The position numbers and the translations under genes are program-made. Positions 2,714-64,000 of a stretch of DNA of 64,000 nucleotides are shown piece by piece (the first letter of the stretch is position 1; the number at the start of each line of letters is the position of its first letter). The notes beneath the pieces are model-generated. The model was not told where the DNA came from. It saw nothing but the letters and a program-made list of their open reading frames with translations, and did not search any database. The DNA is from an uncultured archaeon (GTDB lineage Archaea > Aenigmatarchaeota > Aenigmatarchaeia > QMZP01). Location: positions 944 to 64,943 of the forward strand of contig CAZCGK010000006.1 of assembly GCA_964498245.1 (NCBI GenBank), given 5' to 3'.

Positions 2714-2855
2714 TCTTCCCACCATTCCTTTTAATTTCATTAATCATAAAATTCTCAATCTGCTTTGATAAAATCCAGCCATTCTTTTCGCAAATTTTTT
2801 TATATTCTTCGTAAGTTTTCTCATCAACGCTTAATGAAATAATTTTCTTCCCCAT
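2703..2855 (-). CDS. Small ribbon-helix-helix (CopG/Arc-like) regulator, 50 aa
   Basis: Manual translation MGKKIISLSVDEKTYEEYKKICEKNGWILSKQIENFMINEIKRNGGKNVR*: alternating beta-strand (KIISLSV), helix, G-x-x-x-S turn, helix. Overlaps the endonuclease start by 11 bp. Below the ORF-track size cutoff. Confidence 0.8.
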   Translation of the reverse strand: MGKKIISLSVDEKTYEEYKKICEKNGWILSKQIENFMINEIKRNGGKNVR

Positions 2856-24200: not shown

Positions 24201-24916
24201 CTGTACCAACCATTTCCTAAATCCTCTGCCTGAATGAATTCCGGTCCTCCTATTTGGGAGAAATTCATCGTAACATTCAATCCAGGAACACCTACACTCT
24301 CACCATTAGTAAAGTTTGCAACGATCTCTACCCAGTTTCCATCATAGAAAAACATGTCTGTTGTATTGGACAAATTCAGTGCTGGTCCAGGGCCAAATTG
24401 GCTCCAAGGTGTGAATCCAGGACCGAAGGGTTGAAGAACCTCAAAATTCAGTATTGTTGTATTTGTTGAATCATCGGTGAATGTTGTTGTCACATTTATT
24501 TGATAAAGTTTTCCTTTATTCGGTATGCTTATGTTAAAGAAGAAATATTGTGTTGTTCCGTTCTCTATGAAGCCTGAGGAAGTTGTGTTGGACCATACAA
24601 GATGCATAACAGATCCTGCACTTGTGTTGGAGAAAGTTGTGGATTGAGCTGTAGTCTGAGCAGATCCTTCAATGAATACAAGCTCTGCAGGGAGGGTTAT
24701 GTTGACTTTAGTTATGTTCAGAGCAGAGTCTGTATTTGTGATGCTGATATTGAGTATCTGGTTGGACTGATCCGGATATGGAATAGCAACCTGAGATGGT
24801 TGAATGCTGGATTGAAATGTTGCACCATGAACTGAAAAAGAATAAAATGATATACATAATAACAATACAGCTATAAAACAAAATACTGCTCCTATCTTTA
24901 AATTAACTTTTTTCAT
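21209..24916 (-). CDS. Cell-surface glycoprotein with Ig-like repeats, PGF-pre-PGF-type domain, Cys-rich modules and C-terminal TM
   Basis: Signal peptide from MKKVNLK (24916). Repeats TVDTTxPTxTIxSPQNTTY...NDxAGN. ESTGFSYFAIAG (PGF-pre-PGF-like); CNINGVCEEGETPENCPEDC; 6-Cys module at 21308-21421; TM plus basic tail. Confidence 0.85.
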   Translation of the reverse strand: MKKVNLKIGAVFCFIAVLLLCISFYSFSVHGATFQSSIQPSQVAIPYPDQSNQILNISITNTDSALNITKVNITLPAELVFIEGSAQTTAQSTTFSNTSAGSVMHLVWSNTTSSGFIENGTTQYFFFNISIPNKGKLYQINVTTTFTDDSTNTTILNFEVLQPFGPGFTPWSQFGPGPALNLSNTTDMFFYDGNWVEIVANFTNGESVGVPGLNVTMNFSQIGGPEFIQAEDLGNGWYRAGAFIDYSNLNVNIKYISDVNITVKATNDSVFYYEFLVPVLLFNMSVVPSCPPNVLELPPQMPLPNGTLVNITGCTNECPVENIGFAWDNGTDYVVCTPKFGGSTTNFNQIAATGDFSAVPLVIEIPGVVKINFTQPVDMSTKEKASAIMQFAMKNLMKAGRIGINDSEWNGQGDKPNLTTSARITIYNITGLLGIKDPSIGYGSFNGSFLPSDLQPCPPTRCMDVVFDGENLSFTVSTFSTYVVGSTLHNLTFENLTVMERFVQAGQNATYLINITNFGNNSLGEEYNLSVVGTGILNDTFLNLSIGEWEVVELNVSNSTEGVYTSYIIANHWNGTDTETDWNLSSADDGVIFTTYVSTGPPSNIIIVSPTPSNNSHINTNYFEINITFTDDTPQACILELNNGTQANYTMTMLGNYACYFNATNQGDGIISYSVYINDSVGNWGWNGTWYVTVDTTQPTVTIYSPQNTTYATTSIDLNYTVQDANLDSCWYSLNGGSNIILASCSNITITASEGLNNVIVYANDSAGNTGSAQEYFTVDTTPPTITILSPQNTTYNTTTLWLNFTYTEANLDTCWYQYNGTNTSLPSCSNQTFTALNNQQSTLILWMNDTAGNINHASITFTVDTIQPSVTLISPSNASTWTSSSTVTFTYNVTDASSITSCTLLINGITDQTDTSITKDTSQTFTKSLSNGNYNWSVRCRDAGGNTGISSVYYLTVSYTPPESSITYDTGGGAGYTPQEILPYVAYSWSRVNPGNVSIFKLNKKEIGIHEIGIMVINPATSVYIKVTKLKGKPADVTHEVSGKVYQYIEITHRNLRNNLEKATIKFHVNKSWIEENNINKSTISLYRYTTSWQKLPTTLISEDSKTVYYEAESTGFSYFAIAGEEVQVSEEVCNINGVCEEGETPENCPEDCKQPEEQPLKQVCTPGEKRCLGQELQQCNQEGTSWETLEICQYGCSEEKCKSPDYTWIWYLIIAILVAGAAAIYMFKIRAIQ

Positions 24917-25108
24917 ATACAAATAAATAATTAGCTTGAGACCTATATAAAATTTTAAATCGTATCCGCAAAATAAAGCAGCTTGCAAAAATAAACCTTT
25001 ATAAACCTCTGCAGTATTCTAAATATATAATCTATAATATATTATTCTCTCCTGTTCCAAATCTCGGAATCGATTAAAGCCTTCAGTTTTTGCGGAGGTG
25101 ATAACCCC

Positions 25109-50237: not shown

Positions 50238-51518
50238 ATGCAGGAGAGCACTGCATTTATCTGCTATTACACCAAACATAACAGGAACGGTTTTAATGCA
50301 CTAATAGGGGCTTTAGAAACAAAGGATTGTTTTCAGGATGTAAAGCTCTATATTTTTAGAAAGGAAGGGAATTTATTCTCATCTCTTGATAGTATTGTTA
50401 AACGACATTCCAAAGTGATTATCGGCTTTTCCTTTTTCACAACACAGCTGTGGAAGATTTATCCTGTGATAAAGAAATTGAAACAGAAATATGGAAAAAG
50501 GATTCTTTGCATTGCTGGAGGACCGCATCCCACGGGAGATCCCCTGGGCACGCTTAGAATGGGATTTGATATTGTGGTGAGAGGTGAAGGTGAGGAAACA
50601 TTTATTGAGCTTCTGAGAAGGCTTGAGGAAAACGAGGATTATGAGGATGTAAAGGGAATTGTCTTTATGGCTGAGGAAGGGTATCATTTTTCAGGCTGGA
50701 GAAAACCTGTTGATCTCAATTCTTATCCACCGTTTGCTGTTGAGCATAGTCTGTTTGGTCCGATAGAGATAACCAGAGGTTGTCCCTTTGCCTGTTATTT
50801 CTGTCAAACTCCTCGCATTTTTGGTACGAAACCAAGACACAGAACCGTTGAGAATATCTGCAAATACGTAAAGATTATGAAGGGGAAAAACAGAACAGAT
50901 ATAAGATTTGTTGCACCTAACGCATTTTCTTACGGTTCTCCTGATGGCAAAGAAGTGAACATTCAGGCTTTGGAAGAACTTCTGGAAAGCTTGAGGCAGA
51001 TTTTGGGCAGGAGTGGAAGGATATTTTTTGGATCGTTTCCCTCTGAGGTCAGACCAGAACATGTAACAGAGGAAACTTTGGATTTGGTTATGAAATACGC
51101 GAATAATGATAATTTAATTATAGGGGCCCAGTCCGGTAGCCAGAGAATTCTGGATATGTGCCACAGACAGCATAGTGTTGAGGATGTGTACAATGCTGTA
51201 AGGCTTACCAGGAAGGCAGGATTAAGAGCAAATGTTGATTTTATTTTCGGATTGCCCGGAGAAACCGAGAAGGATGTAGAGATTACACTAAAGGTTATCA
51301 AGGATTTGGTAAAAATGGGTGCGAAAATACACGTGCATGCCTTCATGCCTCTACCACAGACTCCCTTTGCAAAGGAAAGTTTCAAACCTTTGGATAAGGA
51401 GTTGATCAGAAAAATAAGCAGGATGATATCCCAGGGCTTTGCATACGGAGCATGGATGGAGCAGATCAACATTGCAAGGAAAATCGCAGAATATTTAAAA
51501 ACAGGTGTATTAAAATGA
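50238..51518 (+). CDS. B12-binding-domain radical SAM protein (TIGR04013-like)
   Basis: [26 protein letters not shown] (CxxxCxxC), [15 protein letters not shown]. Confidence 0.88.
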
Positions 51519-51574: not shown

Positions 51575-52792
51575 ATGAGTGATGAGGAAAAGCTCGGAGG
51601 TAAAAACCTGAAGGCTGTAGTGGAGGAACTTGAAAGCATTAGAGGTAGGCATACAGAGCTTGTGACTGTTTATATTCCTAAGGGCTATAATCTTAATAAA
51701 GTTGTGGAGCAGATAAGATCAGAACAGGGAACAGCACAGAACATAAAATCAAAAACTGTTAGAAAAAATGTGGTCGGTGCGCTTGAGAAAATCCTCCAGC
51801 ATTTAAGGCTTTACAAGGAAACCCCGGAAAACGGTCTGGCCATCTTCTGCGGAAATGTATCTGAAAAGGAGGGTGTGTCTGATATAGAACTCTGGGCCAT
51901 AGAACCGAAAGAACCGATAAAAACAAAGCTTTACTGGTGCGGACAGGAGTTTATTCTGGATCCATTGAAGGAAATGGTAAGGGAAAGAGAGGTTTACGGG
52001 CTTATTCTGTTTGATAAATCCGAAGCAACCATAGGCATACTCCGTGGAAAGTACATAGAAACCTTAAAGCACCTGCACTCCCTCGTTCCGGGAAAGACAA
52101 AAGCAGGTGGCTGGTCCCAGGCAAGATATGCAAGGATAAGAGAGGGTCTTCTTCACGATTTCATGAAAAAGACCGGAAGTATTGCAACGGAAATTTTTTC
52201 ACAGGAAAAAGATTTGAAGGGCATAATAATAGGCGGCCCAGGGCCTACTAAAGAGGAGTTTGCTAAGGGAGATTTTCTGAGATATGACCTCAAAAAGAAG
52301 GTTATCGGTATAGTAAACACATCTTACACAGGGGAATATGGTTTGAGGGAAATGGTTAACCGAGCTGAAGATATAATAGCAGATGCATCTATAATCAAGG
52401 AAAAGAAAATTCTTGAGAGGTTCTTTACAGAGCTTTACAAAGATTCTGGATTTGCAGTGTATGGTTTCTTTGAAACCATAGATGCACTGAGAAATGGTAA
52501 TTTGGAATTGCTTCTTATTTCTGAAAATTTTGATTGGGTTAAGGCCAAGTTCAAATGCTCATGCGGAGAGGAATTTGAAAGAATAGTGAACAAAAAGAAA
52601 ATAGAGGATCAAAAATGTCCCAAATGCGGGGGAAAACCGGAGATTGCAGAGGAGCATGATTTAATGGAAAAAATAATGAAACTTGCAGAAGATATGGGAA
52701 CTCAGGTTGAAGTTATATCTCAGGGAATCGGCATGGGAGAACAGTTTAAAGAGCTTGGAGGGATCGGAGGGATACTGAGGTATAAGATGTAG
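51575..52792 (+). CDS. prf1: Peptide chain release factor aRF1 (atypical GGWSQ loop)
   Basis: GRHTELVTVYIP, AQNIKSK (NIKS), LYWCGQEF (YxCxxxF), GGPGPTKEEF, Zn ribbon CSCG...CPKCG, LGGIGGILRY. Confidence 0.95.
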   Translation: MSDEEKLGGKNLKAVVEELESIRGRHTELVTVYIPKGYNLNKVVEQIRSEQGTAQNIKSKTVRKNVVGALEKILQHLRLYKETPENGLAIFCGNVSEKEGVSDIELWAIEPKEPIKTKLYWCGQEFILDPLKEMVREREVYGLILFDKSEATIGILRGKYIETLKHLHSLVPGKTKAGGWSQARYARIREGLLHDFMKKTGSIATEIFSQEKDLKGIIIGGPGPTKEEFAKGDFLRYDLKKKVIGIVNTSYTGEYGLREMVNRAEDIIADASIIKEKKILERFFTELYKDSGFAVYGFFETIDALRNGNLELLLISENFDWVKAKFKCSCGEEFERIVNKKKIEDQKCPKCGGKPEIAEEHDLMEKIMKLAEDMGTQVEVISQGIGMGEQFKELGGIGGILRYKM

Positions 52793-53360: not shown

Positions 53361-53642
53361 TTATACAAATACAGTGGTGTTGTCAAATTCTATCAATGGT
53401 TTATTCTTAATCCTTTTGAATCTTCTTTCACACTTCTTACATAACGTTGCTATCTCTATTTCAACATCCGTTTCAGAAGAAAGTTTTTTGAAATATTTTT
53501 TGAGAAATATAAAATTCTGGAAATCTATATCACCGATATATACACTTTTATGCAACCTTACAAAACCGTTATTTCTTAAAAAATTTCTTATTTTTTCCCT
53601 TTTTCTATCATCACTTATATCATAGCTTGTTATTGCAAGCAT
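53361..53642 (-). CDS. cas2: CRISPR-associated endonuclease Cas2
   Basis: SYDISDDRKR...GFVRLHKSVYIG; GGTGA SD before ATG at 53642. Confidence 0.93.
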   Translation of the reverse strand: MLAITSYDISDDRKREKIRNFLRNNGFVRLHKSVYIGDIDFQNFIFLKKYFKKLSSETDVEIEIATLCKKCERRFKRIKNKPLIEFDNTTVFV

Positions 53643-54591
53643 TGCTTTCACCAAACGGTACAAATTCGCTTCTATCGAGAATGTAATCAACCCAGTGATT
53701 AATTCTTTTCTTTATTAATGATTTTGTTTTATCCAGCTTGTTAAGAACATTTTCTATAACAATTTTTCTACCCTTTTCGTTAAGATACATACCTCCGTGT
53801 TTTTTCGGATTCAATATTTTTTTAAACACAAGCCTTAGGATAGTCGAATCTACAATTGGTTGCCTGAATTCTTCCATAAAATCCAACACAAGACACGGTT
53901 TCCTGCCTTTTTCTTCATGGTAAAAACCTATGTAAGGATCAAACCCTTTCATTACAAGATATTTCCATAGTTCAGAAAAAAGAATACCATATCCATAACT
54001 CAGAGAAGCATTAACTATATCTTGAGGTGGACGTGTTCTCCCATTAAAACGAAAGAATTTTGGAATTATTTTTCTGAGAGACTCAAAATATAATTTTGCA
54101 GAAATGCCTTCTATGCCTCTTAATTCTTCTATAGATTGTTTTTGATAAATTTTTGACAACCAAGTTTCAAGCTGTCCAGCATATTTCATTAAAAGATTAC
54201 ATTTTTCTTTACTCGTTCTTTTTCTTGAGTATGCAAGTGATTTTATAATACCGATTTTATTTTTTATGCATGCATGAACAATACCTTGAATTATGTCAAT
54301 GTTTTTTTCTATAGACTTTTTATATTGCATTTTTCTTAATATGGGAAAATTTTCATTTGTTATGTAATATAATTTTGCAACAGGCATACCGAATCTGTCC
54401 ATGAATGTAAGATCTTTTTTAGAATTGACTATAAGAGCTATTGCAGAAGAACTTATGCCGCAGCTTTTATATAATATTATTCTTTCAATGTTGGTTATAG
54501 AATATTCTTCACTTTTTTCATCCGTATATAGAACCAACCTGCCCTGTTTTTTACCGATAAATGTGCCGTGTTTATCTATTATTATATTCAT
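53620..54591 (-). CDS. cas1: CRISPR-associated endonuclease Cas1
   Basis: LRGIEG..AKLYF, R.RPPQD.VNA.LSYGY, DPYIGFYH, LVLDFMEEFRQPIVD. Confidence 0.96.
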   Translation of the reverse strand: MNIIIDKHGTFIGKKQGRLVLYTDEKSEEYSITNIERIILYKSCGISSSAIALIVNSKKDLTFMDRFGMPVAKLYYITNENFPILRKMQYKKSIEKNIDIIQGIVHACIKNKIGIIKSLAYSRKRTSKEKCNLLMKYAGQLETWLSKIYQKQSIEELRGIEGISAKLYFESLRKIIPKFFRFNGRTRPPQDIVNASLSYGYGILFSELWKYLVMKGFDPYIGFYHEEKGRKPCLVLDFMEEFRQPIVDSTILRLVFKKILNPKKHGGMYLNEKGRKIVIENVLNKLDKTKSLIKKRINHWVDYILDRSEFVPFGESNACNNKL

Positions 54592-55483
54592 TGTGTTCAC
54601 CTTTGCAGAATGAATTGAAACAACATGAATTGCATAATAACGTTTTCTTTCCCTGAGGGAAAACGCGCCTTAGATAGTATGAAATACATTTATCTCTCAG
54701 GTCTTTTGCATATTTTCTTAATTCATCGTCTATTTTGAAGGAATATGCTTTATTAGCATCTAAATAATATATTGTACCCTTGTTACAATTTTTATGAAAA
54801 ATTCTTTCAAGAGCAATAGAATAGAATACCACCTGTAATTTATCCGTGAACCATGGTTCATTTTTTGGAGAATTGCCTGTTTTTATTTCTTCTACTGTAA
54901 AGGTGTTATTTTTCTGAAAAATTATATCTATTCTGCCAGACACGGCTATATCTTTACTCGAAAAATAATATTCTTTCGCAAACGGGAGTATGATTTTCTT
55001 TATTTCATTTATTGTGGTCTTGTTAAAGAGCATAAATTCTATTCTTTCTCTATCTCTGACCCACCTTTTCAAAACAGAATTATTAATTTTTTCAACAATA
55101 TCCTTTGGAATATTTTGCTCTGTACATATTTCTGATATTTTATTTTGCCATAGAAACATGAAATTGTTTAAAGATCTAGTATAATTAAGCGATTCTATCA
55201 AATCCTCAAGAAGTTCATAATAATCTTTGATTAGAATCCTATGTTTTATCAAGCCAATCGACATGTTGAATGATTTTTCCGATTTACCTTCGATAGCAGA
55301 ATAATAAAATTTTCGTGGACAAATGTAAAAAGATATGTACGACCTTACGGGTAAAATTATATTTTTGTCTGTATTCCAATACTCAGAATATCCTCTGAAT
55401 TTATCAGAAATAGAGGAGGCGCCTCCTGAGTTTATCTGCTTCATCTTGCGCATCAGCCAACTATCCTTACTAGAACAAGTCAA
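54572..55483 (-). CDS. cas4: Cas4 family exonuclease (long, Csa1/Cas4a-like)
   Basis: CPRKFY, SGRIDII, VEEIKTG, QVVFY, C-terminal CNSCCFNSFC Fe-S ligands; strong SD AAGGAGGTGA before TTG at 55483. Confidence 0.9.
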   Translation of the reverse strand: MTCSSKDSWLMRKMKQINSGGASSISDKFRGYSEYWNTDKNIILPVRSYISFYICPRKFYYSAIEGKSEKSFNMSIGLIKHRILIKDYYELLEDLIESLNYTRSLNNFMFLWQNKISEICTEQNIPKDIVEKINNSVLKRWVRDRERIEFMLFNKTTINEIKKIILPFAKEYYFSSKDIAVSGRIDIIFQKNNTFTVEEIKTGNSPKNEPWFTDKLQVVFYSIALERIFHKNCNKGTIYYLDANKAYSFKIDDELRKYAKDLRDKCISYYLRRVFPQGKKTLLCNSCCFNSFCKGEHNEYNNR

Positions 55484-55648
55484 ATTATCACCTCCTTATT
55501 CTTAATGAGAAATAGTTTGAATCAAATAGCAAATACTTTACATGAACGGTTCAAATTTTATTGAACACATAGAAAATTTTTATATTGTTCAATTATTTGT
55601 TTAACCATAAGCCAAATATTTATAAGTTTTAATTTGTTTTTCATTCTT
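55484..55648. promoter_or_regulatory. Divergent cas promoter region with repeated TGAAC/GTTCA palindromic half-sites
   Basis: TGAAC-G-GTTCA at 55543-55553; ATTGAACA (55560-55567) / TGTTCAAT (55586-55593) flank a TTTTTATA box; TTTGA-A-TCAAA at 55516-55526. Confidence 0.55.
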
Positions 55649-56875
55649 ATGGGAAAAGTTCTGGTAATGAGTGTCGGTGTTGGTGGAAACAACAAAGAAA
55701 GCCTTGCAAACGCTTTGAAATATTCCATCCAACACCACAATCCGGAAAAAGTAATATTTCTTGTTTCTGAGCAGAGTAAGAATGAAGTATTACCGCTTAT
55801 AGTTGAGGATATGGATTCTGAGTATGAAACTATAGATGTGTCCGATATAAACGACATAGATAAATTATATGAAAAATTTGTAACTATATTTTCTCTGTTG
55901 TTGAAAAGAGGATATAAACATAAAGATATAGTTGTAGATTTCACAAGTGGCACAAAAGCCATGAGTGCTGCCCTTGCAATTGCAAGTATATCTATGGAAA
56001 TAGAAAATCTTAGTTATATAATGGGCGATAGAAAGGATGGTACTGTTATATCTGGTAGGGAGAGAATTCTGCCATTAAGACCTTATAGTATATTAATTGA
56101 TAACCAGCTAAAGATAATCGATACTTTGTTTTCATTCTACAGGTTTGATGCATGTATAGATATAATCAATACATTAAAACGGAAAACCAATGCTGATGAT
56201 ATACAAAGCATTCTTAATAAATATGAAAACATTTGTTTGGCCTATTCTTTGTGGGATAAGTTCGACCACAGTTCTGCACAAGAGAAATTAAAAGATGTAA
56301 AGAATATTTTGCGCAAAAATTATGGATTTTTAGGCAGACTTAATGCTTTAAAGAAAAATGAGGAAAATGATGTTTTCGAATATCTGATAGCAGATCTGAT
56401 AAACAATGCTAAGAGAAGAGGAAAGGAAGGAAGATATGATGATGCTGTTGCCAGATTGTATAGAGCAGTTGAGATGGTTGCTCAGTACAGACTTAAATCT
56501 CTGGGATTTGATACCTCTGATATAGATATGAGAAAAATACCAGAAAAACATAAAGAGAAATACAATCAACTCAAAGATAAAAAAACGGGTAAGATAAAGC
56601 TACCTCTTTATAAAAGCTATGAATTGTTATCCGATATTGACGATGAAATTGGTAAAAAGTTTTATGAAAACGAAGAGCTCCAGAAATATTTAAGAGTCAG
56701 AAACGACTCGGTTTTAGCTCATGGAATAACACCTATTACGCAAGAATTATACGAAAAGTTATTGAAAGCCACTATAGATTTTATAAAAGATGTTTTCCCA
56801 GATATTGAAAATCTCATGAGAATCTCTGAATTTCCCAGTTCAATACCCATTGAACGGTACAAAAAAGAGATTTAG
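55649..56875 (+). CDS. csm6: CARF-HEPN ribonuclease (Csm6 / TIGR02710-like)
   Basis: SVGVG strand; VDFTSGTKAMSAAL CARF motif; GRYDDAVARLYRAVEM; HEPN RNDSVLAH. Confidence 0.88.
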   Translation: MGKVLVMSVGVGGNNKESLANALKYSIQHHNPEKVIFLVSEQSKNEVLPLIVEDMDSEYETIDVSDINDIDKLYEKFVTIFSLLLKRGYKHKDIVVDFTSGTKAMSAALAIASISMEIENLSYIMGDRKDGTVISGRERILPLRPYSILIDNQLKIIDTLFSFYRFDACIDIINTLKRKTNADDIQSILNKYENICLAYSLWDKFDHSSAQEKLKDVKNILRKNYGFLGRLNALKKNEENDVFEYLIADLINNAKRRGKEGRYDDAVARLYRAVEMVAQYRLKSLGFDTSDIDMRKIPEKHKEKYNQLKDKKTGKIKLPLYKSYELLSDIDDEIGKKFYENEELQKYLRVRNDSVLAHGITPITQELYEKLLKATIDFIKDVFPDIENLMRISEFPSSIPIERYKKEI

Positions 56876-56898
56876 GAATAGAATTAAAAAAGCATGAT

Positions 56899-57633
56899 AT
56901 GATGAACACCCAACAAATCTTCCAGATAGCAACTCTGGGTGAACAACCAGAACCAATAATATATTTGTTGAAGGCATATCCAAATACAAAAAAGATTTTT
57001 CTTATTTGTAGTGATAAGTCTGTGGATTATTCCGAACCGATAGAAAAAACATGCGATATTCTCGATATTGATGTGGATAAAAGAATAATTCAACCGCAAA
57101 AAATTTCCAACATCATAAAGGAAATTATAATTATCGCAAAGGAATGCGGTTATTCTCCACCGGTTTTCTATGGCATTAGAAGCAAAAAACCTCATAAAAT
57201 AATAAAAGAAGCCAAAGCAAAGAAAAGAGAAAATGCTAACATCTTCATCAATATAACTGGTGGAACAAAGGTTATGAGTTCTGCCGCTTTATATTCTGCG
57301 TATCTTATAGGCGCGAAAGCGTTTTATGTATGGAAAAATGATGATAATGGTGATATGGAAATAATAAATCTACCTACATTGAATTTATCGATAGAAAATT
57401 TTCTTTCACCAGTGCGTCTTAAGATACTTGGTGTTCTTTATGAAAAACAAAAGGTAAAGTCTTCCGAGGAGATAAGAAAGGACACGGAAATCCAAAAATC
57501 TACCATCAGCCATATTATAAGAGAACTGGAAAAAATAAACCTTGTAAAAACAACAGGAGGACGAAGTAAATATCTTCAGACAGAAATAACAGAAGAGGGT
57601 AGATTGATATATGAAATTTACGGAAAGAGGTGA
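56899..57633 (+). CDS. CARF + winged HTH protein (Csa3-like regulator)
   Basis: INITGGTKVMSS CARF motif; C-terminal LKIL...STISHIIRELEKINLV...ITEEG wHTH. Confidence 0.82.
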   Translation: MMNTQQIFQIATLGEQPEPIIYLLKAYPNTKKIFLICSDKSVDYSEPIEKTCDILDIDVDKRIIQPQKISNIIKEIIIIAKECGYSPPVFYGIRSKKPHKIIKEAKAKKRENANIFINITGGTKVMSSAALYSAYLIGAKAFYVWKNDDNGDMEIINLPTLNLSIENFLSPVRLKILGVLYEKQKVKSSEEIRKDTEIQKSTISHIIRELEKINLVKTTGGRSKYLQTEITEEGRLIYEIYGKR

Positions 57634-59906
57634 GAGAAATGATAGATATAGAATCTGTAAAAATTGGTGCATTGCTACATGATATAGGAAAACCTTTAGT
57701 TGGTAGGAAAGAATTTATTGGTAAAACACATTCAAGAATAGGATATGAATTATTACAACCTTTAAAATCTTTGCTTGGTGAGAAATCACTCAAGGCTGTT
57801 TTATATCATATGTACGAAGAAAGAAAACGTGAATGTATAGATTATAATAAGCTAGATGATGAATGTATTATCGTTGATATAGCCGACAATCTTGCTTCTG
57901 CATCTGATAGAGAAGAAAAGGAAAGCGATGAAAAAAGTTCTTATATTATCGATCCTATAACAAAGAAAACAGTCGAACCTTATCTACATGGCATAAAACA
58001 CTTGAAAAACTTACCACTTTATCTTTCAAAAATACCAAATTTCAACAAAAGTATAATACTTTCAAAGATTTTGCTTGAACCAAAACCATCAAATGGAAAC
58101 AATTCAGAAGTTAAAAGTGGTCTTAGTGAAATAACTAAACTGCTAAAAAAATGGAGAGCATCTTATTATTCTCCCAACCATTCTTTATACCATCATATAA
58201 AACTTACAGCAGCAATAGCAACATGTATCGCATATGACATGAAAAACGGCATTATTAATATAGAGAATGTCAAAAATTATGACGTTAAATTTGCTCTCGT
58301 CTCAGGAGATATAAGAGGTATACAAAACTTTATTTCGCAATCAAGAAAATTCAGAGATTTGCATAATTCCAGCCAGATAATAATGGATGTAATAAATAAT
58401 TTAGCTGAATGTATAGAATCAAAATATGGAATTCAGAATGTTCTGTATAAAGGTGGTGGAAATTTTTTGGTATTACTTCCTTACTCTGAATATGAAAAGG
58501 ATATAGAAAAACTTGAAAACAGATTTCAGCAGTATTTATCCGGTATGGGATGGAAAAAGGGTATTAAAAAACCATTTTCTGTTTTGTTTTCTGTGAGCAT
58601 TTTGAGAAAAACAGGTAGTGAGAATAAAACAAACTCACACGAAATAAGTAATTTCGGTAAATGCTGGGAGCGATTGCAGAAAATATCATTTTATGGAAAG
58701 TCAAGAGGTTTCAAAAAGATTATTGAAAAAAATTATCATGAAATTGATGATTATTTTCCTGATATTGTTCATGCAAGACAATATGAAGAATTTATATGTT
58801 CCCTTTGCGGTGAAAGAGAAGGCATGTATAAAACGGATAAAGAAAAACGAGAGATTCTTTGCGAGATATGCTACAGAAAAAGAAACAGAAAAACCAGAAC
58901 GTATGTTGACCTTGGAGAAATTGCAATAGCTTCTATCAAAGACAAGGTAATTAATTTTATGGGTGTCAAAGAATTTGAAAAGATTGTAGGAAAATCAATA
59001 AATGATATCTCGTATGATGATTTGATCAAAATAAAAGAGAATATCACAAAAAAGAATGTGAAAAAGGAGGTTAAGGAATTTTTTGCAAAGCTCAAGATAC
59101 CAAAAGAAATAGCGGTATTAAAAATCGATGGAGATAACCTTGGTAGATGGTTTTCTGGAAAGGGGATAAAAGAAGAGTGTGAAAAGGAAAAGCGAAGAGT
59201 TAGGAAAACTACAGAAAAAGGGAAAGAGGAAGAATGTAAAGTTACAATAGCAACAATTTCTTATCTAAGCGAACAGATAAAGAGTTTGGAAAGAGATATA
59301 ATAAAAACCATCAAAAAATGTAAAGGAGAATGCGTATACACAGGTGGTGATGATACTCTTGCCGTGTTACCTTTATCCCAAGCTGTTCGGTGTGCAATGG
59401 AGGTCAATGAACTTTTCAGAAAAAGGTTTACAGGAACCGATAATGAGCAAAAAATAACAATTTCTGCAGGCATATTTGTATGCGATCATCACTTCCATTT
59501 AAGATTTGCACTTGAAGAGGCAGAAAAAATGCTTTCTACATCGAAAGGTGAAGGTAAAAATAAATGTACAATTGGAGTTATGGGCAAGGTTGGAAATTAT
59601 ATAACATATGAATGGAAAGAGCTTGAAAGATTATGGAATGGTATAAACCTGATAAAAATTCCGAGGAATGAACTATACAAATTAAGAACAATTCTTCACA
59701 GCAAATCTGATGAAACGGAAAAACTGAACGAAATTAGAGCGTTCTTGATATATCAGCTTTCGAGAAAGAAAGAAGATGAGATAGAGGAATTCAGGAATTT
59801 TGTTGAGTTTATTCTTCGGGAAATAAAGAATGATGGTATCAGATTTTTGAACAAGTTTTTCCAGCTTGTGGAAATAAAAACTGAGGAGGTGGATAATGAA
59901 AAGTGA
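57630..59906 (+). CDS. cas10: Type III CRISPR large subunit Cas10 with HD nuclease and intact cyclase palm
   Basis: LLHDIGK...HSRIG...ADNLAS (HD); SGDIRGIQNFI; YKGGGNF; Zn ribbon CSLC...CEIC; KIDGDNLG; YTGGDD. Confidence 0.96.
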   Translation: MREMIDIESVKIGALLHDIGKPLVGRKEFIGKTHSRIGYELLQPLKSLLGEKSLKAVLYHMYEERKRECIDYNKLDDECIIVDIADNLASASDREEKESDEKSSYIIDPITKKTVEPYLHGIKHLKNLPLYLSKIPNFNKSIILSKILLEPKPSNGNNSEVKSGLSEITKLLKKWRASYYSPNHSLYHHIKLTAAIATCIAYDMKNGIINIENVKNYDVKFALVSGDIRGIQNFISQSRKFRDLHNSSQIIMDVINNLAECIESKYGIQNVLYKGGGNFLVLLPYSEYEKDIEKLENRFQQYLSGMGWKKGIKKPFSVLFSVSILRKTGSENKTNSHEISNFGKCWERLQKISFYGKSRGFKKIIEKNYHEIDDYFPDIVHARQYEEFICSLCGEREGMYKTDKEKREILCEICYRKRNRKTRTYVDLGEIAIASIKDKVINFMGVKEFEKIVGKSINDISYDDLIKIKENITKKNVKKEVKEFFAKLKIPKEIAVLKIDGDNLGRWFSGKGIKEECEKEKRRVRKTTEKGKEEECKVTIATISYLSEQIKSLERDIIKTIKKCKGECVYTGGDDTLAVLPLSQAVRCAMEVNELFRKRFTGTDNEQKITISAGIFVCDHHFHLRFALEEAEKMLSTSKGEGKNKCTIGVMGKVGNYITYEWKELERLWNGINLIKIPRNELYKLRTILHSKSDETEKLNEIRAFLIYQLSRKKEDEIEEFRNFVEFILREIKNDGIRFLNKFFQLVEIKTEEVDNEK

Positions 59907-60354
59907 ATATGAACTGGGGAAGCAAATTGCAAAAGAACTAGCAAATGCAGGTGTTTCAGAGACCAAATACAGACAACTGTATAACATAATCATCAACAGT
60001 TCAGCATATCAAGATGTTGAAAGAAGGCTTAAGAAAAAAGAAGGCTCGGATACAGAAAGAGACAAACAAATAGAAAATGAAATACTTGAAGTGTTCAACA
60101 GACTGAAGGGTGTATTAATTTACAGTGCAACCCGAGGAGAATTGGCTAGTGGTGATAATAAACGAGAAAGATTTGAGAAATCACAGAAAGTTACAGAATT
60201 CTTTTTGCAAAAGCTATCCCAATACAAACCAGAGATTGAGGATTTCAGAAGGTTCAAAAAAGTAATGGAGTATGCAACCATGTTCTTTAAATTTTACAGT
60301 GATCCCAAACTGAAAAATTTCCGAGAGAGTCTTGAAAATAAAAACCTGATATAG
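59896..60354 (+). CDS. csm2: Type III small subunit (Csm2/Cas11)
   Basis: Alpha-helical 152 aa directly after cas10; TKYRQLY...L..L.Y...R...F....EY...F.K. Confidence 0.7.
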   Translation: MKSEYELGKQIAKELANAGVSETKYRQLYNIIINSSAYQDVERRLKKKEGSDTERDKQIENEILEVFNRLKGVLIYSATRGELASGDNKRERFEKSQKVTEFFLQKLSQYKPEIEDFRRFKKVMEYATMFFKFYSDPKLKNFRESLENKNLI

Positions 60355-60365
60355 GAGGTGAAATT

Positions 60366-61022
60366 ATGGAAAGTAGAGCAAAATTGAAAGAAAGGGTTGT
60401 TTTAAACTGCGTGTTAACCGTGAAAAGTCAGCTGCATATAGGTGCGGGAAAGGAAGCCATAACTCCAGGAACGACAGACCTGGTTGTGATAAGGGATTCC
60501 AACGACATGGTATACATTCCCGGATCTTCGATAAGGGGCTGTCTGAGAATGGAAGCAGAAAAGCTTTCAGATGAGGAAACCATAGAAAAAATTTTTGGTA
60601 GAGCTGATAAAGAGAGTTTGGCATCAAAAATTATTGTAAGAAACGGTTATTTGAAAGAAGAGGAAGTGATAGGACTGGACACACGACCCGGTATTCAAAT
60701 AGACAGGGAAACAGGTAGTGTAAAAAAAGGTGCCCTGTTTTTCACAGAAGCAATACCAAGGGGTACAAAGTTTTACTTTCAGATAATTGTAGACAATCCT
60801 ACAGATGAAGAGCTCCAGCTTATACTTGCAGCAATCAGAGCAGTTAATGACAGAGGACTAGGTCACGGTGTTTCAAGAGGATTCGGACATGTTGTGATCA
60901 AAATAAAAGACGATTCTGTAATCAAAACGCCAACATCCTACATCACAGGGGAAACAGAAAGTTTCATTGAGAAATACAAAAAACTGAATCTCGATGACCT
61001 TATTATAAAAGCGAGTGATTGA
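60366..61022 (+). CDS. csm3: Cas7-group RAMP (Csm3)
   Basis: LHIGAG, TTDLVVIRD (candidate catalytic Asp), YIPGSSIRG, R.GI.IDR.TG, G-rich loop GLGHGVSRGFG. Confidence 0.92.
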   Translation: MESRAKLKERVVLNCVLTVKSQLHIGAGKEAITPGTTDLVVIRDSNDMVYIPGSSIRGCLRMEAEKLSDEETIEKIFGRADKESLASKIIVRNGYLKEEEVIGLDTRPGIQIDRETGSVKKGALFFTEAIPRGTKFYFQIIVDNPTDEELQLILAAIRAVNDRGLGHGVSRGFGHVVIKIKDDSVIKTPTSYITGETESFIEKYKKLNLDDLIIKASD

Positions 61023-61023
61023 A

Positions 61024-61764
61024 ATGCAAATCGCACCTGAATTAAAGGAGAGAAGAATCGTTAAATGTGAAATGAAATTGTTAGAGACAGGTAGGAAGTG
61101 GCTGATACTTGATTCTTCCATGAATCTGCAGATACCTGGTTCATGGATAAAGGGTATAATAAGAAGAGAAGCCGAAGAAAGACAGTACTTAATTATAGAT
61201 AATCAGAAGTTTGTAAAATGTGCTGTAGGGCAGAAATTCGATTTCAGAGCATTAAAACACGGAAACAGTTATAAAGAATTCTGGGACGAAAGAGAGAAAA
61301 AATGGAAGGAACCAGCAAAATATATACCGCCTTTTGCTAATATAAAAAGGACATACACTTACAGCAGAAAATATAAGAGACACTACGGTACATTTTGCGG
61401 AAACTTGAGACAGGAACGACAAATTAATAATGAAAAACAAAAACTTGAAATAATATGCGATGTCTGCAAAATATTCGGTTGCGCAGGGGGATTTTACAGT
61501 TATGCAAGTAAAGCAAAATTCAGCAATGGATTTATGAACAATGTAAACTTTACTTTCTCTATAGTATTTGATATCAGTAACGAAGAAGATACACGTCTTT
61601 ATAACAGGCTTATTGAAGTTTTAAAAGCATTCGAAAACGGAAACACAATTCTTGAGAAGGAGATTCTACCAAGACATAGATTAAATAGAACACTGGGTTT
61701 TTCCTTGAAAGTGGTTGAAGAAAAAACTATAAAACCTGAGGATTATCTGGGAGGTGAAATATGA
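61024..61764 (+). CDS. Atypical/degenerate Cas7-like RAMP with basic-aromatic insertion
   Basis: LQIPGSWIKGIIRREAE and CDVCKIFG...SKAKFS are RAMP-core motifs; lacks the N-terminal xHIG motif and the C-terminal G-rich loop. Confidence 0.6.
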   Translation: MQIAPELKERRIVKCEMKLLETGRKWLILDSSMNLQIPGSWIKGIIRREAEERQYLIIDNQKFVKCAVGQKFDFRALKHGNSYKEFWDEREKKWKEPAKYIPPFANIKRTYTYSRKYKRHYGTFCGNLRQERQINNEKQKLEIICDVCKIFGCAGGFYSYASKAKFSNGFMNNVNFTFSIVFDISNEEDTRLYNRLIEVLKAFENGNTILEKEILPRHRLNRTLGFSLKVVEEKTIKPEDYLGGEI

Positions 61765-62834
61765 GTCCTGTAATTCTGGATGTAACAATCAAACTCCTCT
61801 CACCTATGTACATAGGTGTCGGGTATGAGTTTACTCACTTAAAGCGTTGCAAGGATTATATTCCGGGAATAGTTCTGAGAGGCGCGTTTGAAACAGCTAT
61901 CACGGAAATTTATGGAGATAAAGATATTGTGGAAAGTGTTCATAACAAAATATTTCAGAAATACGAAATGAAAAATGGTAAAATCATAAATAGCAATAAA
62001 AAGGGAAATGCCTATTTTCGTCCAGCATATCCAATGATTGAAGAAACGAAACTGTTACCCTGTCCACAAAATGTCTCATATTGTCCTAAATGTGGAAAAT
62101 TGCTTCGCGATAAACCTATTTGTCCAGAACATAACGAAAAATGTAAAAGAATAAAATGGATTTCTGAAGAAGGATTGGAAATGGTTATGAATAATGGAGA
62201 AGTGAATGAGAAACTGAATGGTGAAATTCCGAAAAAAAGAAAAATATGGAGAATATCTCTTGAAACCAGTAAGGGCACGGTGAAGGAAGGACCCTTTGTA
62301 TATGAAGCAATTGAAAAAGATGAATGTTTTCATACCCGGATAATTTTGTTGAAGGACTTTGTAAAGGAGTTCATAAACGCTGCTAAATACTTAGAAGACA
62401 GTGGTATCGGTGCACTTACAAAAATGGGATTTGGTGAAGTTGAGATAAAAATCAAACAATCTCAACACGAACCAAACACTATTAAATCATTGGATAAGGA
62501 TGAAATTTCTATAACAGCTCTATCTCCAATAATTACTTCTTCACCTGATGTTTTAAAGGAAGTTTCTAAATCGGATTTGCGAATAAATTATGAACCTGAG
62601 TTGAGAAGACTTGAACTATCTGGATACAACGGCTCTGTTGTGCCTGTTCGAGGATGGTCTTTAGAATATAAAAGGAGAAATCTTCAGTTTGCACTGGATA
62701 AAGGTTCTGTTATATTTTATAAAATTGGAAAAAACATTGATAAGGAAAAACTCATCGACGAGATTAAAAGAGCTCAAATATTCGGTATAGGTAAAAATTC
62801 GATGTTTGGCTTTGGTTGGATCATGTTCCATTAA
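61761..62834 (+). CDS. Cas5-group RAMP with two G-rich loops (Csx10/Csm4-like)
   Basis: LLSPMYIG, DYIPGIVLRGA, CPKC...CPEH, GIGALTKMGFG and GIGKNSMFGFG. Confidence 0.75.
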   Translation: MSPVILDVTIKLLSPMYIGVGYEFTHLKRCKDYIPGIVLRGAFETAITEIYGDKDIVESVHNKIFQKYEMKNGKIINSNKKGNAYFRPAYPMIEETKLLPCPQNVSYCPKCGKLLRDKPICPEHNEKCKRIKWISEEGLEMVMNNGEVNEKLNGEIPKKRKIWRISLETSKGTVKEGPFVYEAIEKDECFHTRIILLKDFVKEFINAAKYLEDSGIGALTKMGFGEVEIKIKQSQHEPNTIKSLDKDEISITALSPIITSSPDVLKEVSKSDLRINYEPELRRLELSGYNGSVVPVRGWSLEYKRRNLQFALDKGSVIFYKIGKNIDKEKLIDEIKRAQIFGIGKNSMFGFGWIMFH

Positions 62835-63025: not shown

Positions 63026-64000
63026 GAAGAAATCGGAAATAGGAAAGGAGTACATGGCAACTTTCTCCTAGATATGCATTAGGATAACCTTTGTTTCTAC
63101 ATGAAGAAATCGGAAATAGGAAAGGAGTACATGGCAACGTAGCTGTTGTATGCTCTTGCTATTATTTTGCTATTTTCTTGAAGAAATCGGAAATAGGAAA
63201 GGAGTACATGGCAACCTCCTTATAATTCTTTTCGCAATTTCTGGAGTTACCAATTGAAGAAATCGGAAATAGGAAAGGAGTACATGGCAACAATTATTCC
63301 TCCGAGCACTCCAAGATAAGGCGCTTTTGAAGAAATCGGAAATAGGAAAGGAGTACATGGCAACTGAGTTTCTCTTTGCAGATATTCCTTAGTTTTTTGA
63401 GTAGAAGAAATCGGAAATAGGAAAGGAGTACATGGCAACTCCACACTCCAAAACCCAAGGGTCATTTTTGAAATCACTGGAAGAAATCGGAAATAGGAAA
63501 GGAGTACATGGCAACGAATGTCTCTGAGTGCGATCAGTTCATCATAATCTTTATAGAAGAAATCGGAAATAGGAAAGGAGTACATGGCAACGTGTGGAGT
63601 GAAATTTAAAATTTTTACATTTTTCATTTTTTGAAGAAATCGGAAATAGGAAAGGAGTACATGGCAACTTATGAAACATTTGTCTGTCAGAATGTCTACA
63701 TACATGCTCGAAGAAATCGGAAATAGGAAAGGAGTACATGGCAACAGTTAAATATTTGCTTTTCTTCCCCAGCATTGAGAGTATAAGGAAGAAATCGGAA
63801 ATAGGAAAGGAGTACATGGCAACTTATTCACCTCCCGATTCATTCTATCTTACCTTTTCCCAGAAGAAATCGGAAATAGGAAAGGAGTACATGGCAACTT
63901 GTTTTCAGATTTCATGGTTTTAGCCATGAAATCACCTCGAAGAAATCGGAAATAGGAAAGGAGTACATGGCAACTGTAAATTACTGTTTTCGTATCGTCG
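63026..64000 (+). CRISPR. CRISPR array: 13 identical 36-bp repeats GAAGAAATCGGAAATAGGAAAGGAGTACATGGCAAC, 12 complete spacers (37-42 bp) plus one truncated
   Basis: Repeat starts at 63026, 63103, 63180, 63256, 63329, 63404, 63480, 63556, 63633, 63710, 63788, 63863, 63939. The 3' end ATGGCAAC resembles the 8-nt ATTGAAAC-type handle, which with the leader position supports + orientation. Confidence 0.99.

What the first reader, a model, noticed from the sequence alone, without database searches (positions are those of the whole stretch)
52081..52140. aRF1 has GGWSQ in place of the near-universal GGQ catalytic motif
Seen: GGA AAG ACA AAA GCA GGT GGC TGG TCC CAG GCA AGA TAT encodes GKTKAGGWSQARY. 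Gln-to-Trp needs two base changes (CAG to TGG), so a single sequencing error is unlikely. The stop-decoding motifs NIKS and YxCxxxF are intact. Known: GGQ is essentially invariant in class-I release factors and its Gln is methylated; shifted-Gln loops occur in Vms1/VLRF1-type and bacterial aeRF1-like rescue factors. Inference: either a working termination factor with a register-shifted catalytic Gln, or a stop-codon-reading paralog repurposed for ribosome rescue or tRNA cleavage.
Basis: partly seen in the sequence, partly recalled or inferred. Interest (0 to 1): 0.72.

Follow-up and report, generated by a model that had tools for sequence, protein, structure and literature searches.

The report
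Archaeal release factor with GGW, not GGQ
The protein that ends translation in this DPANN archaeon carries Gly-Gly-Trp where textbooks describe a universally conserved Gly-Gly-Gln catalytic motif. The change is fixed across a large Aenigmatarchaeota lineage and arose again independently in a second lineage, so nature has an alternative catalytic loop that nobody seems to have described.

Summary
ORF 51575-52792 (+) is a full-length aRF1 (TIGR03676, 480 bits against a cutoff of 235) with NIKS and YxCxxxF intact. TGG at 52112-52114 (W180) sits exactly on the Gln of GGQ in an ungapped alignment.

It is not an error or a one-off. Of the 120 closest protein clusters, 116 have GGW, always encoded by TGG with synonymous variation around it (omega about 0.1-0.2). 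They come from JGI, ENA, NCBI and Logan and are named Aenigmatarchaeota.

GGQ and GGW alleles occupy the same genomic slot (KaiC-like ATPase, aRF1, Nop5), so this is the housekeeping ortholog, not a paralog.

A second lineage, related to Diapherotrites and only 39-41% identical, independently shows GGWSQ. Other lineages show GGMSQ and GGFSQ.

Every W/M/F origin has Gln at +2, against 21% in the GGQ background. Where +2 Gln is lost, Asn appears at +3. This matches the GGxSQ loop described for VLRF1-type factors.

The best reading is a working omnipotent release factor in which a bulky hydrophobic residue fills the peptidyl-transferase-centre pocket and a neighbouring amide probably helps.

Three things were not tested: peptide-release activity, whether a second aRF1 exists in the genome, and whether Mtq2 has been lost. 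I found no description of this variant in the searched literature.

The parts
51575..52792 (+). aRF1 gene (405 aa plus TAG stop). It is the canonical archaeal class-I release factor ortholog with GGW in place of GGQ.
   Evidence: ORF. TIGR03676 aRF1_eRF1 equivalog, 480.1 bits against a cutoff of 234.7. Pfam eRF1_1, eRF1_2 and eRF1_3 all hit. The AF2 model has pLDDT 90, and the best PDB matches are aRF1 4af1 and eRF1 5lzt (TM 0.80).
51626..51979 (+). N domain (residues 18-135), the stop-codon recognition domain.
   Evidence: PF03463 eRF1_1, E = 1.2e-16.
51740..51751 (+). NIKS motif (N56-S59), intact.
   Evidence: Translation. N56, I57, K58 and S59 are invariant in 86 clade members.
51932..51952 (+). 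YxCxxxF motif (Y120 W C122 G Q E F126), intact.
   Evidence: Translation. Y120, C122 and F126 are invariant.
51995..52384 (+). M domain (residues 141-270), which carries the catalytic loop.
   Evidence: PF03464 eRF1_2, E = 3.7e-38.
52079..52105 (+). Loop leading to the motif (S169-A177, SLVPGKTKA). It has a fixed length and is highly conserved.
   Evidence: S169, V171, P172, G173 and K174 are invariant in the clade. Per-column entropies are near 0.
52106..52114 (+). GGW tripeptide (G178 G179 W180; GGT GGC TGG). W occupies the position of the catalytic, normally N5-methylated, Gln.
   Evidence: ungapped alignment. 116 of the 120 closest clusters have GGW. All loci read use TGG.
52115..52120 (+). 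S181-Q182. Together with GGW this forms GGxSQ. Q182 is the candidate displaced amide.
   Evidence: Gln at +2 in 96/134 GGW, 9/10 GGM and 6/6 GGF sequences, against 40/194 GGQ sequences. In GGWSA sequences, +3 is Asn in 32/36. The GGxSQ motif of aVLRF-1 and acVLRF-1 is described in PMC6514570.
52124..52141 (+). Conserved arginines at the start of the helix after the loop (R184, R187, R189), a predicted rRNA-binding surface. Y185 replaces the usual Phe.
   Evidence: R184, R187 and R189 are invariant. The role of these arginines is described in PMC6514570.
52391..52789 (+). C domain (residues 273-405) with an inserted CxC...CxxC zinc ribbon (C328, C330, C348, C351; 52556-52627).
   Evidence: PF03465 eRF1_3, E = 2.6e-25. 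Zn_ribbon_8 gives a weak hit at residues 326-354. The Cys columns are invariant.

Best explanation
This is the organism's ordinary, probably only, omnipotent class-I release factor aRF1. It reads all three stop codons through an intact N domain (NIKS, YxCxxxF) and inserts its M-domain loop into the peptidyl-transferase centre. The canonical Gln has been replaced by Trp. I propose that hydrolysis still works because the two glycines and the backbone of the third residue do the essential positioning. The indole would take over the 'packing' role that the N5-methylated Gln side chain normally plays against A2451, C2452 and U2506. A nearby amide (Gln at +2, or Asn at +3 in sublineages) probably helps hold the water, giving a GGxSQ-type loop like that of VLRF1-family hydrolases. 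SHOWN: identity as an aRF1 ortholog; W at the Gln position; lineage-wide fixation under purifying selection; convergent recurrence; and the association with the +2/+3 amide. INFERRED: retained release activity, the packing role of Trp, the role of the shifted amide, and the expected loss or idleness of the Mtq2 methyltransferase.
For: Family and structure. (1) The protein is an aRF1 equivalog at twice the cutoff, has all three domains and gives a high-confidence eRF1 fold.

Fixation. (2) W180 aligns without gaps on the Gln. (3) 116 of the 120 nearest 90%-identity clusters are GGW. They come from four independent repositories, and the named ones are Aenigmatarchaeota. Five species-representative genomes labelled Aenigmatarchaeota with at least 61% identity are GGW, and those below about 57% are GGQ.

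Selection. (4) The codon is always TGG while neighbouring codons vary synonymously. dS is saturated, and omega is 0.09-0.19 where it can be computed. The loop has a fixed length and near-zero entropy, unlike the inactive aeRF1 relatives described in PMC6514570.

Orthology. (5) GGQ alleles (P0116, P0040) and GGW alleles (P0087, P0046) share the arrangement KaiC-like ATPase <- aRF1 -> <- Nop5. The window and P0004 share MetRS -> aRF1. (6) GGQSA alleles nest inside the GGW clade in 98-100 of 100 NJ bootstraps with the motif columns excluded. The two states therefore interconvert within one gene lineage.

Convergence. (7) A second clade (P0198 and P0273-P0279, all PSKHTKGGWSQ) is 39-41% identical to the window protein but 47-49% identical to a GGQ aRF1 named Diapherotrites. 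It shares aRF1-TruD synteny with that relative. (8) GGM and GGF variants also exist, and the intein-free ones I read show GGMSQ or GGFSQ.

Organism and literature. (9) All three stop codons end ORFs in the window (TAA 21, TGA 15, TAG 13). TGG encodes ordinary conserved Trp elsewhere, for example VWFDA in MetRS. (10) The Gln side chain has a packing role and methylation adds van der Waals contacts (PMC5799190). [quoted passage not shown] 2000, seen only as an entry in the reference list of PMC12440015).
Against: There is no biochemical evidence; activity is inferred.

I could not inspect any whole genome of the clade. A second GGQ-type aRF1 elsewhere is therefore not excluded.

The +2 Gln is absent in about 27% of GGW sequences, and four (GGWSAS) have no amide at +2 or +3. 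The shifted amide therefore cannot be strictly essential.

In model organisms, substitutions of this Gln are poorly tolerated in vivo. Yeast Q182E could not be propagated even with a wild-type copy present (PMC12440015).

The NJ trees are crude, so the number of independent origins and reversions (14-17 Fitch steps) is approximate.
Confidence: 0.62

Rival explanations
1. It is a functional canonical release factor, but the neighbouring Gln or Asn is irrelevant. Catalysis needs only the GG-positioned backbone, any bulky side chain is tolerated, and the S-Q association is historical or structural (for example helix capping) rather than catalytic.
For: GGWSAN and GGWSAS sublineages exist and persist. 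GGQSQ is also common in ordinary aRF1s (40/194), so S-Q may simply be a permissive background. Published work assigns the Gln side chain a packing role, not a chemical one (PMC5799190).
Against: All eight or so independent W/M/F origins carry +2 Gln, against a 21% background. When Gln is lost, Asn appears at +3 in 32/36 cases, against 2/110 in GGQSA. That pattern is hard to explain without selection for an amide there.
Confidence: 0.2
2. The GGW protein binds stop codons but cannot hydrolyse. Release would be carried out by another factor (a second GGQ aRF1, a VLRF1-like hydrolase or a Pth-type enzyme), or the protein has been repurposed for rescue or hibernation, like Pelota or Balon.
For: The Gln is treated as essential in vivo in model systems (PMC12440015; references cited in PMC6514570). 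I could not search whole genomes. The aeRF1 superfamily includes inactive members (PMC6514570).
Against: It shares synteny with GGQ alleles, and GGQ alleles are nested inside the clade. NIKS and YxCxxxF are intact and invariant. The loop is rigidly conserved and of fixed length, whereas inactive families show variable, poorly conserved loops. It scores far below the cutoffs for Pelota (84 against 178), acVLRF1 (51.5 against 125) and Rv2629/Balon (27.5 against 320). There is no second eRF1-like ORF in the 64 kb window and no genome with two hits in the scan.
Confidence: 0.12
3. It is an artefact: a sequencing or assembly error, a pseudogene, or a lineage in which TGG is not read as Trp.
For: None beyond the rarity of the motif.
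Against: More than 130 independent sequences from separate projects carry it. The ORF is intact and omega is about 0.1-0.2. TGG encodes conserved Trp in MetRS and elsewhere in aRF1.
Confidence: 0.01

Closest known systems
Canonical archaeal/eukaryotic class-I release factor aRF1/eRF1 (TIGR03676; PDB 4af1, 3agk, 3vmf, 1dt9)
   Same: It shares the three-domain architecture, NIKS, YxCxxxF, the Gly-Gly pair, the arginines after the loop and the zinc ribbon in the C domain. It also sits in a housekeeping genomic context and is positionally orthologous to GGQ alleles.
   Different: The third residue of the catalytic tripeptide is Trp rather than the Gln described as universally conserved and N5-methylated (PMC6144793, PMC5799190). 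The loop continues S-Q-A-R-Y instead of the usual S-A/S/Q-x-R-F.
aVLRF-1 / acVLRF-1 (Vms1-like release factors of archaea and Actinobacteria/Chloroflexi; Burroughs and Aravind 2019, PMC6514570)
   Same: The loop formula is GGxSQ, a Gln two residues downstream of the di-glycine and preceded by a tiny residue. GGWSQ fits it exactly.
   Different: Those proteins lack the NIKS codon-reading N domain, act in ribosome rescue rather than at stop codons, and have a longer loop. The window protein scores 51.5 bits against a cutoff of 125 for NF041024. The similarity is convergence within the superfamily, not membership.
Pelota/Dom34 and Balon (aeRF1-like factors without GGQ)
   Same: Same superfamily and overall fold. 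The canonical Gln is absent.
   Different: They also lack NIKS, and their loops are variable and poorly conserved. Here NIKS and YxCxxxF are intact and the loop is invariant. Scores are far below the cutoffs.
Laboratory GGQ mutants of RF1/RF2/eRF1 (for example eRF1 AAQ in 5lzv, Gln substitutions)
   Same: The same position is altered. In vitro work indicates the Gln side chain is not strictly needed for hydrolysis.
   Different: Those are engineered and are generally deleterious or lethal in vivo. This one is a naturally fixed, ancient and recurrent state.

Membership tests
aRF1/eRF1 class-I release factor | Three domains (eRF1_1, eRF1_2, eRF1_3) and a whole-protein score above the curated cutoff | tested here: met
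   TIGR03676 480.1 bits against 234.7. PF03463, PF03464 and PF03465 are all above cutoff. AF2 and Foldseek give top hits to aRF1 and eRF1.
aRF1/eRF1 class-I release factor | Stop-codon recognition motifs NIKS and YxCxxxF | tested here: met
   QNIKS at residues 55-59 and YWCGQEF at 120-126. Both are invariant in the clade.
aRF1/eRF1 class-I release factor | GGQ catalytic tripeptide | tested here: not met
   The tripeptide is GGW (G178 G179 W180), and W aligns on Q without gaps. The protein therefore belongs to the family by descent but fails its functional hallmark motif. I file it as a variant, not as a proven peptidyl-tRNA hydrolase.
aRF1/eRF1 class-I release factor | Orthology: same genomic slot as bona fide GGQ aRF1 genes | tested here: met
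   The KaiC-like ATPase <- aRF1 -> <- Nop5 arrangement is shared by GGQ (L002, L003, L088) and GGW (L004, L087) loci. MetRS -> aRF1 is shared by the window and L006.
aRF1/eRF1 class-I release factor | Single copy in the genome | tested here: inconclusive
   There is no second eRF1-like ORF in the window. No whole genome was accessible.
aRF1/eRF1 class-I release factor | Stop-codon-dependent peptidyl-tRNA hydrolysis with aEF1alpha-GTP | not testable with these tools
   This needs a biochemical assay.
aRF1/eRF1 class-I release factor | N5-methylation of the motif Gln by Mtq2(-Trm112) | not testable with these tools
   There is no Gln at the position, so the canonical substrate is absent. Whether Mtq2 is present in the clade could not be checked. 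No NPPY methyltransferase was found in the 171 kb of clade DNA I hold, which is uninformative.
VLRF1-type release factors (aVLRF-1/acVLRF-1) | GGxSQ catalytic loop | tested here: met
   GGWSQ. The motif definition comes from PMC6514570.
VLRF1-type release factors (aVLRF-1/acVLRF-1) | Family-level sequence membership and an architecture without a codon-reading N domain | tested here: not met
   NF041024 scores 51.5 bits against a cutoff of 125. The PF18859 hit lies under the much stronger eRF1_2 hit, and every ordinary aRF1 has it too. An N domain with NIKS is present.
Pelota/Dom34 | Score above the family cutoff and absence of NIKS | tested here: not met
   TIGR00111 scores 84.4 bits against a cutoff of 177.65. 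NIKS is present.
Balon / Rv2629 hibernation factors | Score above the family cutoff and absence of both NIKS and GGQ | tested here: not met
   NF052289 scores 27.5 bits against a cutoff of 320. NIKS is present.
Intein-bearing aRF1 alleles | Hint/LAGLIDADG insertion between GGX and Ser | tested here: not met
   The window protein is 405 aa and aligns contiguously. Inteins are present in relatives only.

The most novel reading that the evidence does not exclude
The 'universal' catalytic Gln of class-I release factors is replaceable in nature. At least two DPANN lineages have converged on a GG-[W/M/F]-S-Q loop. In it, a bulky hydrophobic residue would mimic the packing of N5-methyl-Gln, and a Gln displaced by two residues (or an Asn by three) would supply the amide. 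This would be a distinct, previously unrecognised catalytic-loop solution for stop-codon-dependent termination. It may have evolved together with loss of the Mtq2 methyltransferase in reduced genomes. Intein homing at exactly this site may help move the motif module between alleles.
Probability: 0.4. Interest if true: 0.88.

Novelty: new variant of a known kind. Interest (0 to 1): 0.77.

Why it matters
GGQ is cited as the one motif shared by the unrelated bacterial and archaeo-eukaryotic release factors. [quoted passage not shown]

These lineages have lived for a long time with Trp, Met or Phe at that position in their housekeeping aRF1. They offer a natural experiment on four questions:
- What is the minimal chemistry of peptide release?
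- What is the methylation for?
- Can the VLRF1-type GGxSQ loop support stop-codon-dependent termination?
- How does the translation apparatus of DPANN archaea drift?

The finding is also practical. Motif-based filters that require GGQ to call an aeRF1 active would misclassify these proteins. The variants also suggest loop designs that could be tested in model aRF1 and eRF1 proteins.

Tried and rejected
- Sequencing error or pseudogene: rejected.
- Recoded TGG: rejected, because conserved Trp positions in MetRS and aRF1 use TGG.
- Paralog hypothesis: tested by synteny and phylogeny, and not supported.
- Second eRF1-like gene in the window: none found (phmmer against all six-frame ORFs).
- Rfam and tRNA scans of the window found nothing, so rRNA peptidyl-transferase-centre covariation could not be examined.
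I treat this as weak evidence.
- Regex scan for NPPY-type (Mtq2-like) methyltransferases in all held loci: none found, which is uninformative.
- dN/dS: synonymous sites are saturated for most pairs, so only a few usable values were obtained.
- Cluster look-up for taxon names of the rare variants returned almost no names.
- The primary papers on Gln substitutions (PMC2175178, PMC60236) are not held. I therefore cite only what other held papers say about them.
- Strict reading of the 'register-shifted catalytic Gln' idea: rejected, because GGWSAN and GGWSAS sublineages exist. It is kept in the softer form 'amide at +2 or +3'.
- Sister relationship of the GGM/GGF group to the GGW clade: not robust (about 51% of bootstraps), so I do not claim a single origin.
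Full report
OBSERVATION. The window holds an ORF at 51575-52792 on the + strand (405 aa, TAG stop). At 52088-52129 the DNA reads CCG GGA AAG ACA AAA GCA GGT GGC TGG TCC CAG GCA AGA TAT, which encodes PGKTKAGGWSQARY. The Trp codon (W180) lies at 52112-52114. NIKS (residues 56-59) and YxCxxxF (YWCGQEF, 120-126) are present.

WHAT THE PROTEIN IS. All three eRF1 domains hit above the Pfam cutoffs. The NCBIfam aRF1/eRF1 equivalog model TIGR03676 scores 480 bits against a cutoff of 235. Pelota (84 against 178), acVLRF1 (51.5 against 125) and Rv2629/Balon (27.5 against 320) all fall far below their cutoffs. phmmer against PDB sequences aligns residues 12-404 to Halobacterium aRF1 (4af1, E = 3e-79) and to human eRF1. 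The alignment has no gap around the motif: GKTKAGGWSQARYARIR against GKQRKGGQSAQRFARLR. W180 therefore occupies the position of the catalytic Gln. An AlphaFold2 model built on 86 homologs has mean pLDDT 90, with lower confidence only in the loop. Foldseek returns aRF1 and eRF1 structures first, with TM 0.80 to eRF1 in the eRF1-eRF3 ribosome complex.

GENOMIC CONTEXT. The window is ordinary archaeal chromosome. It encodes a proteasome subunit, aCPSF1/FttA, SepF, prefoldin, exosome subunits Rrp4/41/42, OapC, pyruvate:ferredoxin oxidoreductase and glycosyltransferases. MetRS and a B12-binding radical-SAM protein lie immediately upstream of aRF1. A rubrerythrin-like protein and a type III-A CRISPR-Cas locus lie downstream. 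All three stop codons terminate ORFs (TAA 21, TGA 15, TAG 13). There is no second eRF1-like ORF in the window, and no tRNA or Rfam hit.

NOT AN ERROR: A LINEAGE-WIDE STATE. The search of the 5.8-billion-protein collection returned 120 best clusters at 61-79% identity. Of these, 116 have GGW (81 GGWSQ, 35 GGWSA) and 4 have GGQSA. They come from JGI, ENA, NCBI and Logan assemblies, and those with names are called Aenigmarchaeota or Aenigmatarchaeota. In the species-representative genome collection, the five MAGs labelled Aenigmatarchaeota with at least 61% identity are GGW. MAGs with the same label at 48-57% identity are GGQ. GGW therefore marks a large subclade, not the whole phylum. In the ten GGW loci whose DNA I read, the codon is always TGG, while the adjacent Gly and Ser codons differ synonymously, including TCN/AGY switches. 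Synonymous sites are saturated between most pairs. Where dS could be estimated, omega is 0.09-0.19. Within the clade the loop S169-x-V-P-G-K...G-G-W-S..R..R.R has a fixed length and is nearly invariant. Burroughs and Aravind describe the opposite for catalytically inactive aeRF1 relatives.

ORTHOLOG, NOT PARALOG. GGQ-type P0116 lies between a divergently transcribed KaiC-like ATPase (PF06745/DUF7125) and a convergent Nop5 gene. GGQ-type P0040 has the same ATPase upstream. GGW-type P0087 has exactly the ATPase <- aRF1 -> <- Nop5 arrangement. GGWSAN-type P0046 has the ATPase upstream and Nop5 a few genes downstream. P0004, like the window, has MetRS immediately upstream and Nop5 nearby. I also built NJ trees from an HMM-guided alignment of 327 aRF1s, with inteins removed and the motif columns excluded. 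In these, the GGQSA alleles P0040, P0092 and P0114 fall inside the GGW clade in 100 of 100 bootstraps, P0116 in 98, and L011 in 79. The two states are therefore alleles of one gene lineage and have interconverted. That is hard to reconcile with GGW being non-functional.

THE DEPARTURE FROM GGQ IS BROADER AND CONVERGENT. The exhaustive search of 1.84 billion 50%-identity representatives and the genome scan turned up further variants:
- GGM in 11 sequences, including three genomes (L024, L028, L063).
- GGF in six sequences, including a Nanoarchaeia genome (L069).
- Single GGS and GGE cases.
- More distant GGW proteins.

I followed up one of the distant GGW proteins, P0198. Its seven nearest clusters (60-66% identity) all read PSKHTKGGWSQ[RK]RFER. 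This clade is only 39-41% identical to the window protein. It is 47-49% identical to a GGQSS aRF1 named Candidatus Diapherotrites. It also shares aRF1-TruD synteny with that GGQ relative. GGWSQ has therefore arisen at least twice. Parsimony on the NJ trees gives 14-17 Q/non-Q changes overall. This is a rough figure.

THE NEIGHBOURING AMIDE. The +2 residue is Gln as follows:
- GGW: 96 of 134.
- GGM: 9 of 10.
- GGF: 6 of 6.
- GGQ: 40 of 194 (21%).

Each of the roughly eight independent W/M/F origins I can distinguish carries S-Q: the Aenigmatarchaeota W/M/F assemblage, the P0198 clade, P0167, P0205, P0251, L069, P0159 and P0154. Within the GGW clade, the +2 Gln was lost 11-16 times by parsimony. 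In 32 of those 36 GGWSA sequences the next residue is Asn, against 2 of 110 GGQSA sequences. About 95% of GGW proteins therefore keep an amide at +2 or +3, and four (GGWSAS) do not. Tyr also replaces the usual Phe at +5 in most W/M/F proteins. [quoted passage not shown]

MECHANISM. The following points rest on the literature. The two glycines adopt backbone angles that only Gly allows. [quoted passage not shown] N5-methylation stabilises it through extra van der Waals contacts with U2506, A2451 and A2452 (PMC5799190). Archaeal aRF1 is methylated at this Gln by Mtq2 (PMC6144793). [quoted passage not shown] 2000 in the reference list of PMC12440015.

On that basis I propose the following. The GGW factor still terminates translation, with the GG backbone doing the positioning. 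The indole (or Met/Phe side chain) would fill the pocket as a permanently hydrophobic stand-in for methyl-Gln. The +2/+3 amide would assist water placement. None of these steps is shown here. Trp cannot be a substrate for Mtq2, so I predict that the methyltransferase is lost or redundant in these reduced genomes. I could not test this.

RIVALS.
- A functional factor in which the neighbouring amide is irrelevant remains quite possible (0.2).
- A hydrolysis-dead stop-codon binder, or a repurposed factor backed up by a canonical aRF1 elsewhere, is disfavoured by synteny, nesting, motif conservation and family scores. It is not excluded, because I had no whole genome to search (0.12).
- Artefact or recoding is excluded for practical purposes (0.01).

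KNOWN OR NEW. Full-text searches for GGW with release factor and archaea, for Aenigmarchaeota with GGQ, for DPANN with GGQ, and for intein with aRF1 or release factor found no description of this variant. Recent papers still call GGQ universally conserved. The library does not cover subscription journals, so prior mention cannot be ruled out. I classify the protein as a new variant of a known kind. It is an aRF1 by descent that fails the family's hallmark catalytic motif.

VERDICT. It involves a whole clade, a convergent second clade, and Met and Phe versions. Interest is high (0.77). The decisive steps are a genome census for a second aRF1 and for Mtq2, and a release assay with W180 and Q182 mutants.

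Noticed in passing
relatives only: e.g. P0123 (912 aa, GGW|C...HN|SQARY), P0131 (GGQ), P0127 (GGM), P0125 (GGF), P0122 (mini-intein): Many aRF1 relatives (44/124 GGQ, 6/128 GGW, 6/8 GGM, 3/5 GGF among the proteins held) carry an intein inserted exactly between the third motif residue and the following Ser. The intein has an intein-splicing domain, often with a LAGLIDADG homing endonuclease and an HTH. I found no mention of an aRF1 intein in the searched literature. The window gene has none.
   Followed up: partly
L089 10001-11197 (GCA_003558235.1 PWMI01000075.1); P0198, P0273-P0279: There is a second, independent archaeal clade whose aRF1 reads PSKHTKGGWSQ. Its nearest GGQ relatives are named Diapherotrites, and it shares aRF1-TruD synteny with them.
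   Followed up: yes
L024, L028, L063 (GGMSQ); L069 (GGFSQ, Candidatus Nanoarchaeia STD1_207); P0154, P0159 (GGFSQ); P0213 (GGS plus intein); P0265, P0266 (GGE): Other natural replacements of the motif Gln occur: Met, Phe, Ser and Glu. The Glu and Ser cases are single sequences and unverified. P0266 is labelled [Eubacterium] cellulosolvens in NCBI, which looks like contamination of a bacterial assembly.
   Followed up: partly
P0040, P0092, P0114, P0116, L011: GGQ-SA-x-RF alleles are nested inside the GGW clade (79-100% of NJ bootstraps). The three positions Q/W, +2 and +5 seem to switch together as a module. An untested idea is that flanking sequence is co-converted during intein homing at this site.
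   Followed up: partly
window 63026-63979 (runs to the window end): A CRISPR array has at least 13 copies of a 36-nt repeat, GAAGAAATCGGAAATAGGAAAGGAGTACATGGCAAC, spaced 73-78 nt apart. The mechanical ORF 63247-63744 (-) lies over it and is spurious.
   Followed up: partly
window 53361-62834: A type III-A-like CRISPR-Cas locus lies directly after the aRF1 neighbourhood. It encodes Cas2, Cas1 and Cas4 on the minus strand, then Csm6 (CARF-HEPN), a CARF-wHTH protein, Cas10 with an HD domain, Csm2 and RAMP proteins.
   Followed up: partly
window 13464-21116 (-) and 21209-24988 (-): Two giant ORFs (2550 and 1259 aa) carry MG2 (alpha-2-macroglobulin-like) and bacterial Ig-like domains. They are probably surface proteins, as is common in DPANN archaea.
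   Followed up: no
window 898-1836 (-) and 1817-2740 (-): An N6/N4 DNA methylase overlaps a 307-aa ORF that has no Pfam hit. This may be a restriction-modification pair.
   Followed up: no
window 50238-51518 (+): A B12-binding radical-SAM protein sits between MetRS and aRF1. In the closest long contig (L006), MetRS directly abuts aRF1, so this gene is an insertion relative to that relative.
   Followed up: no
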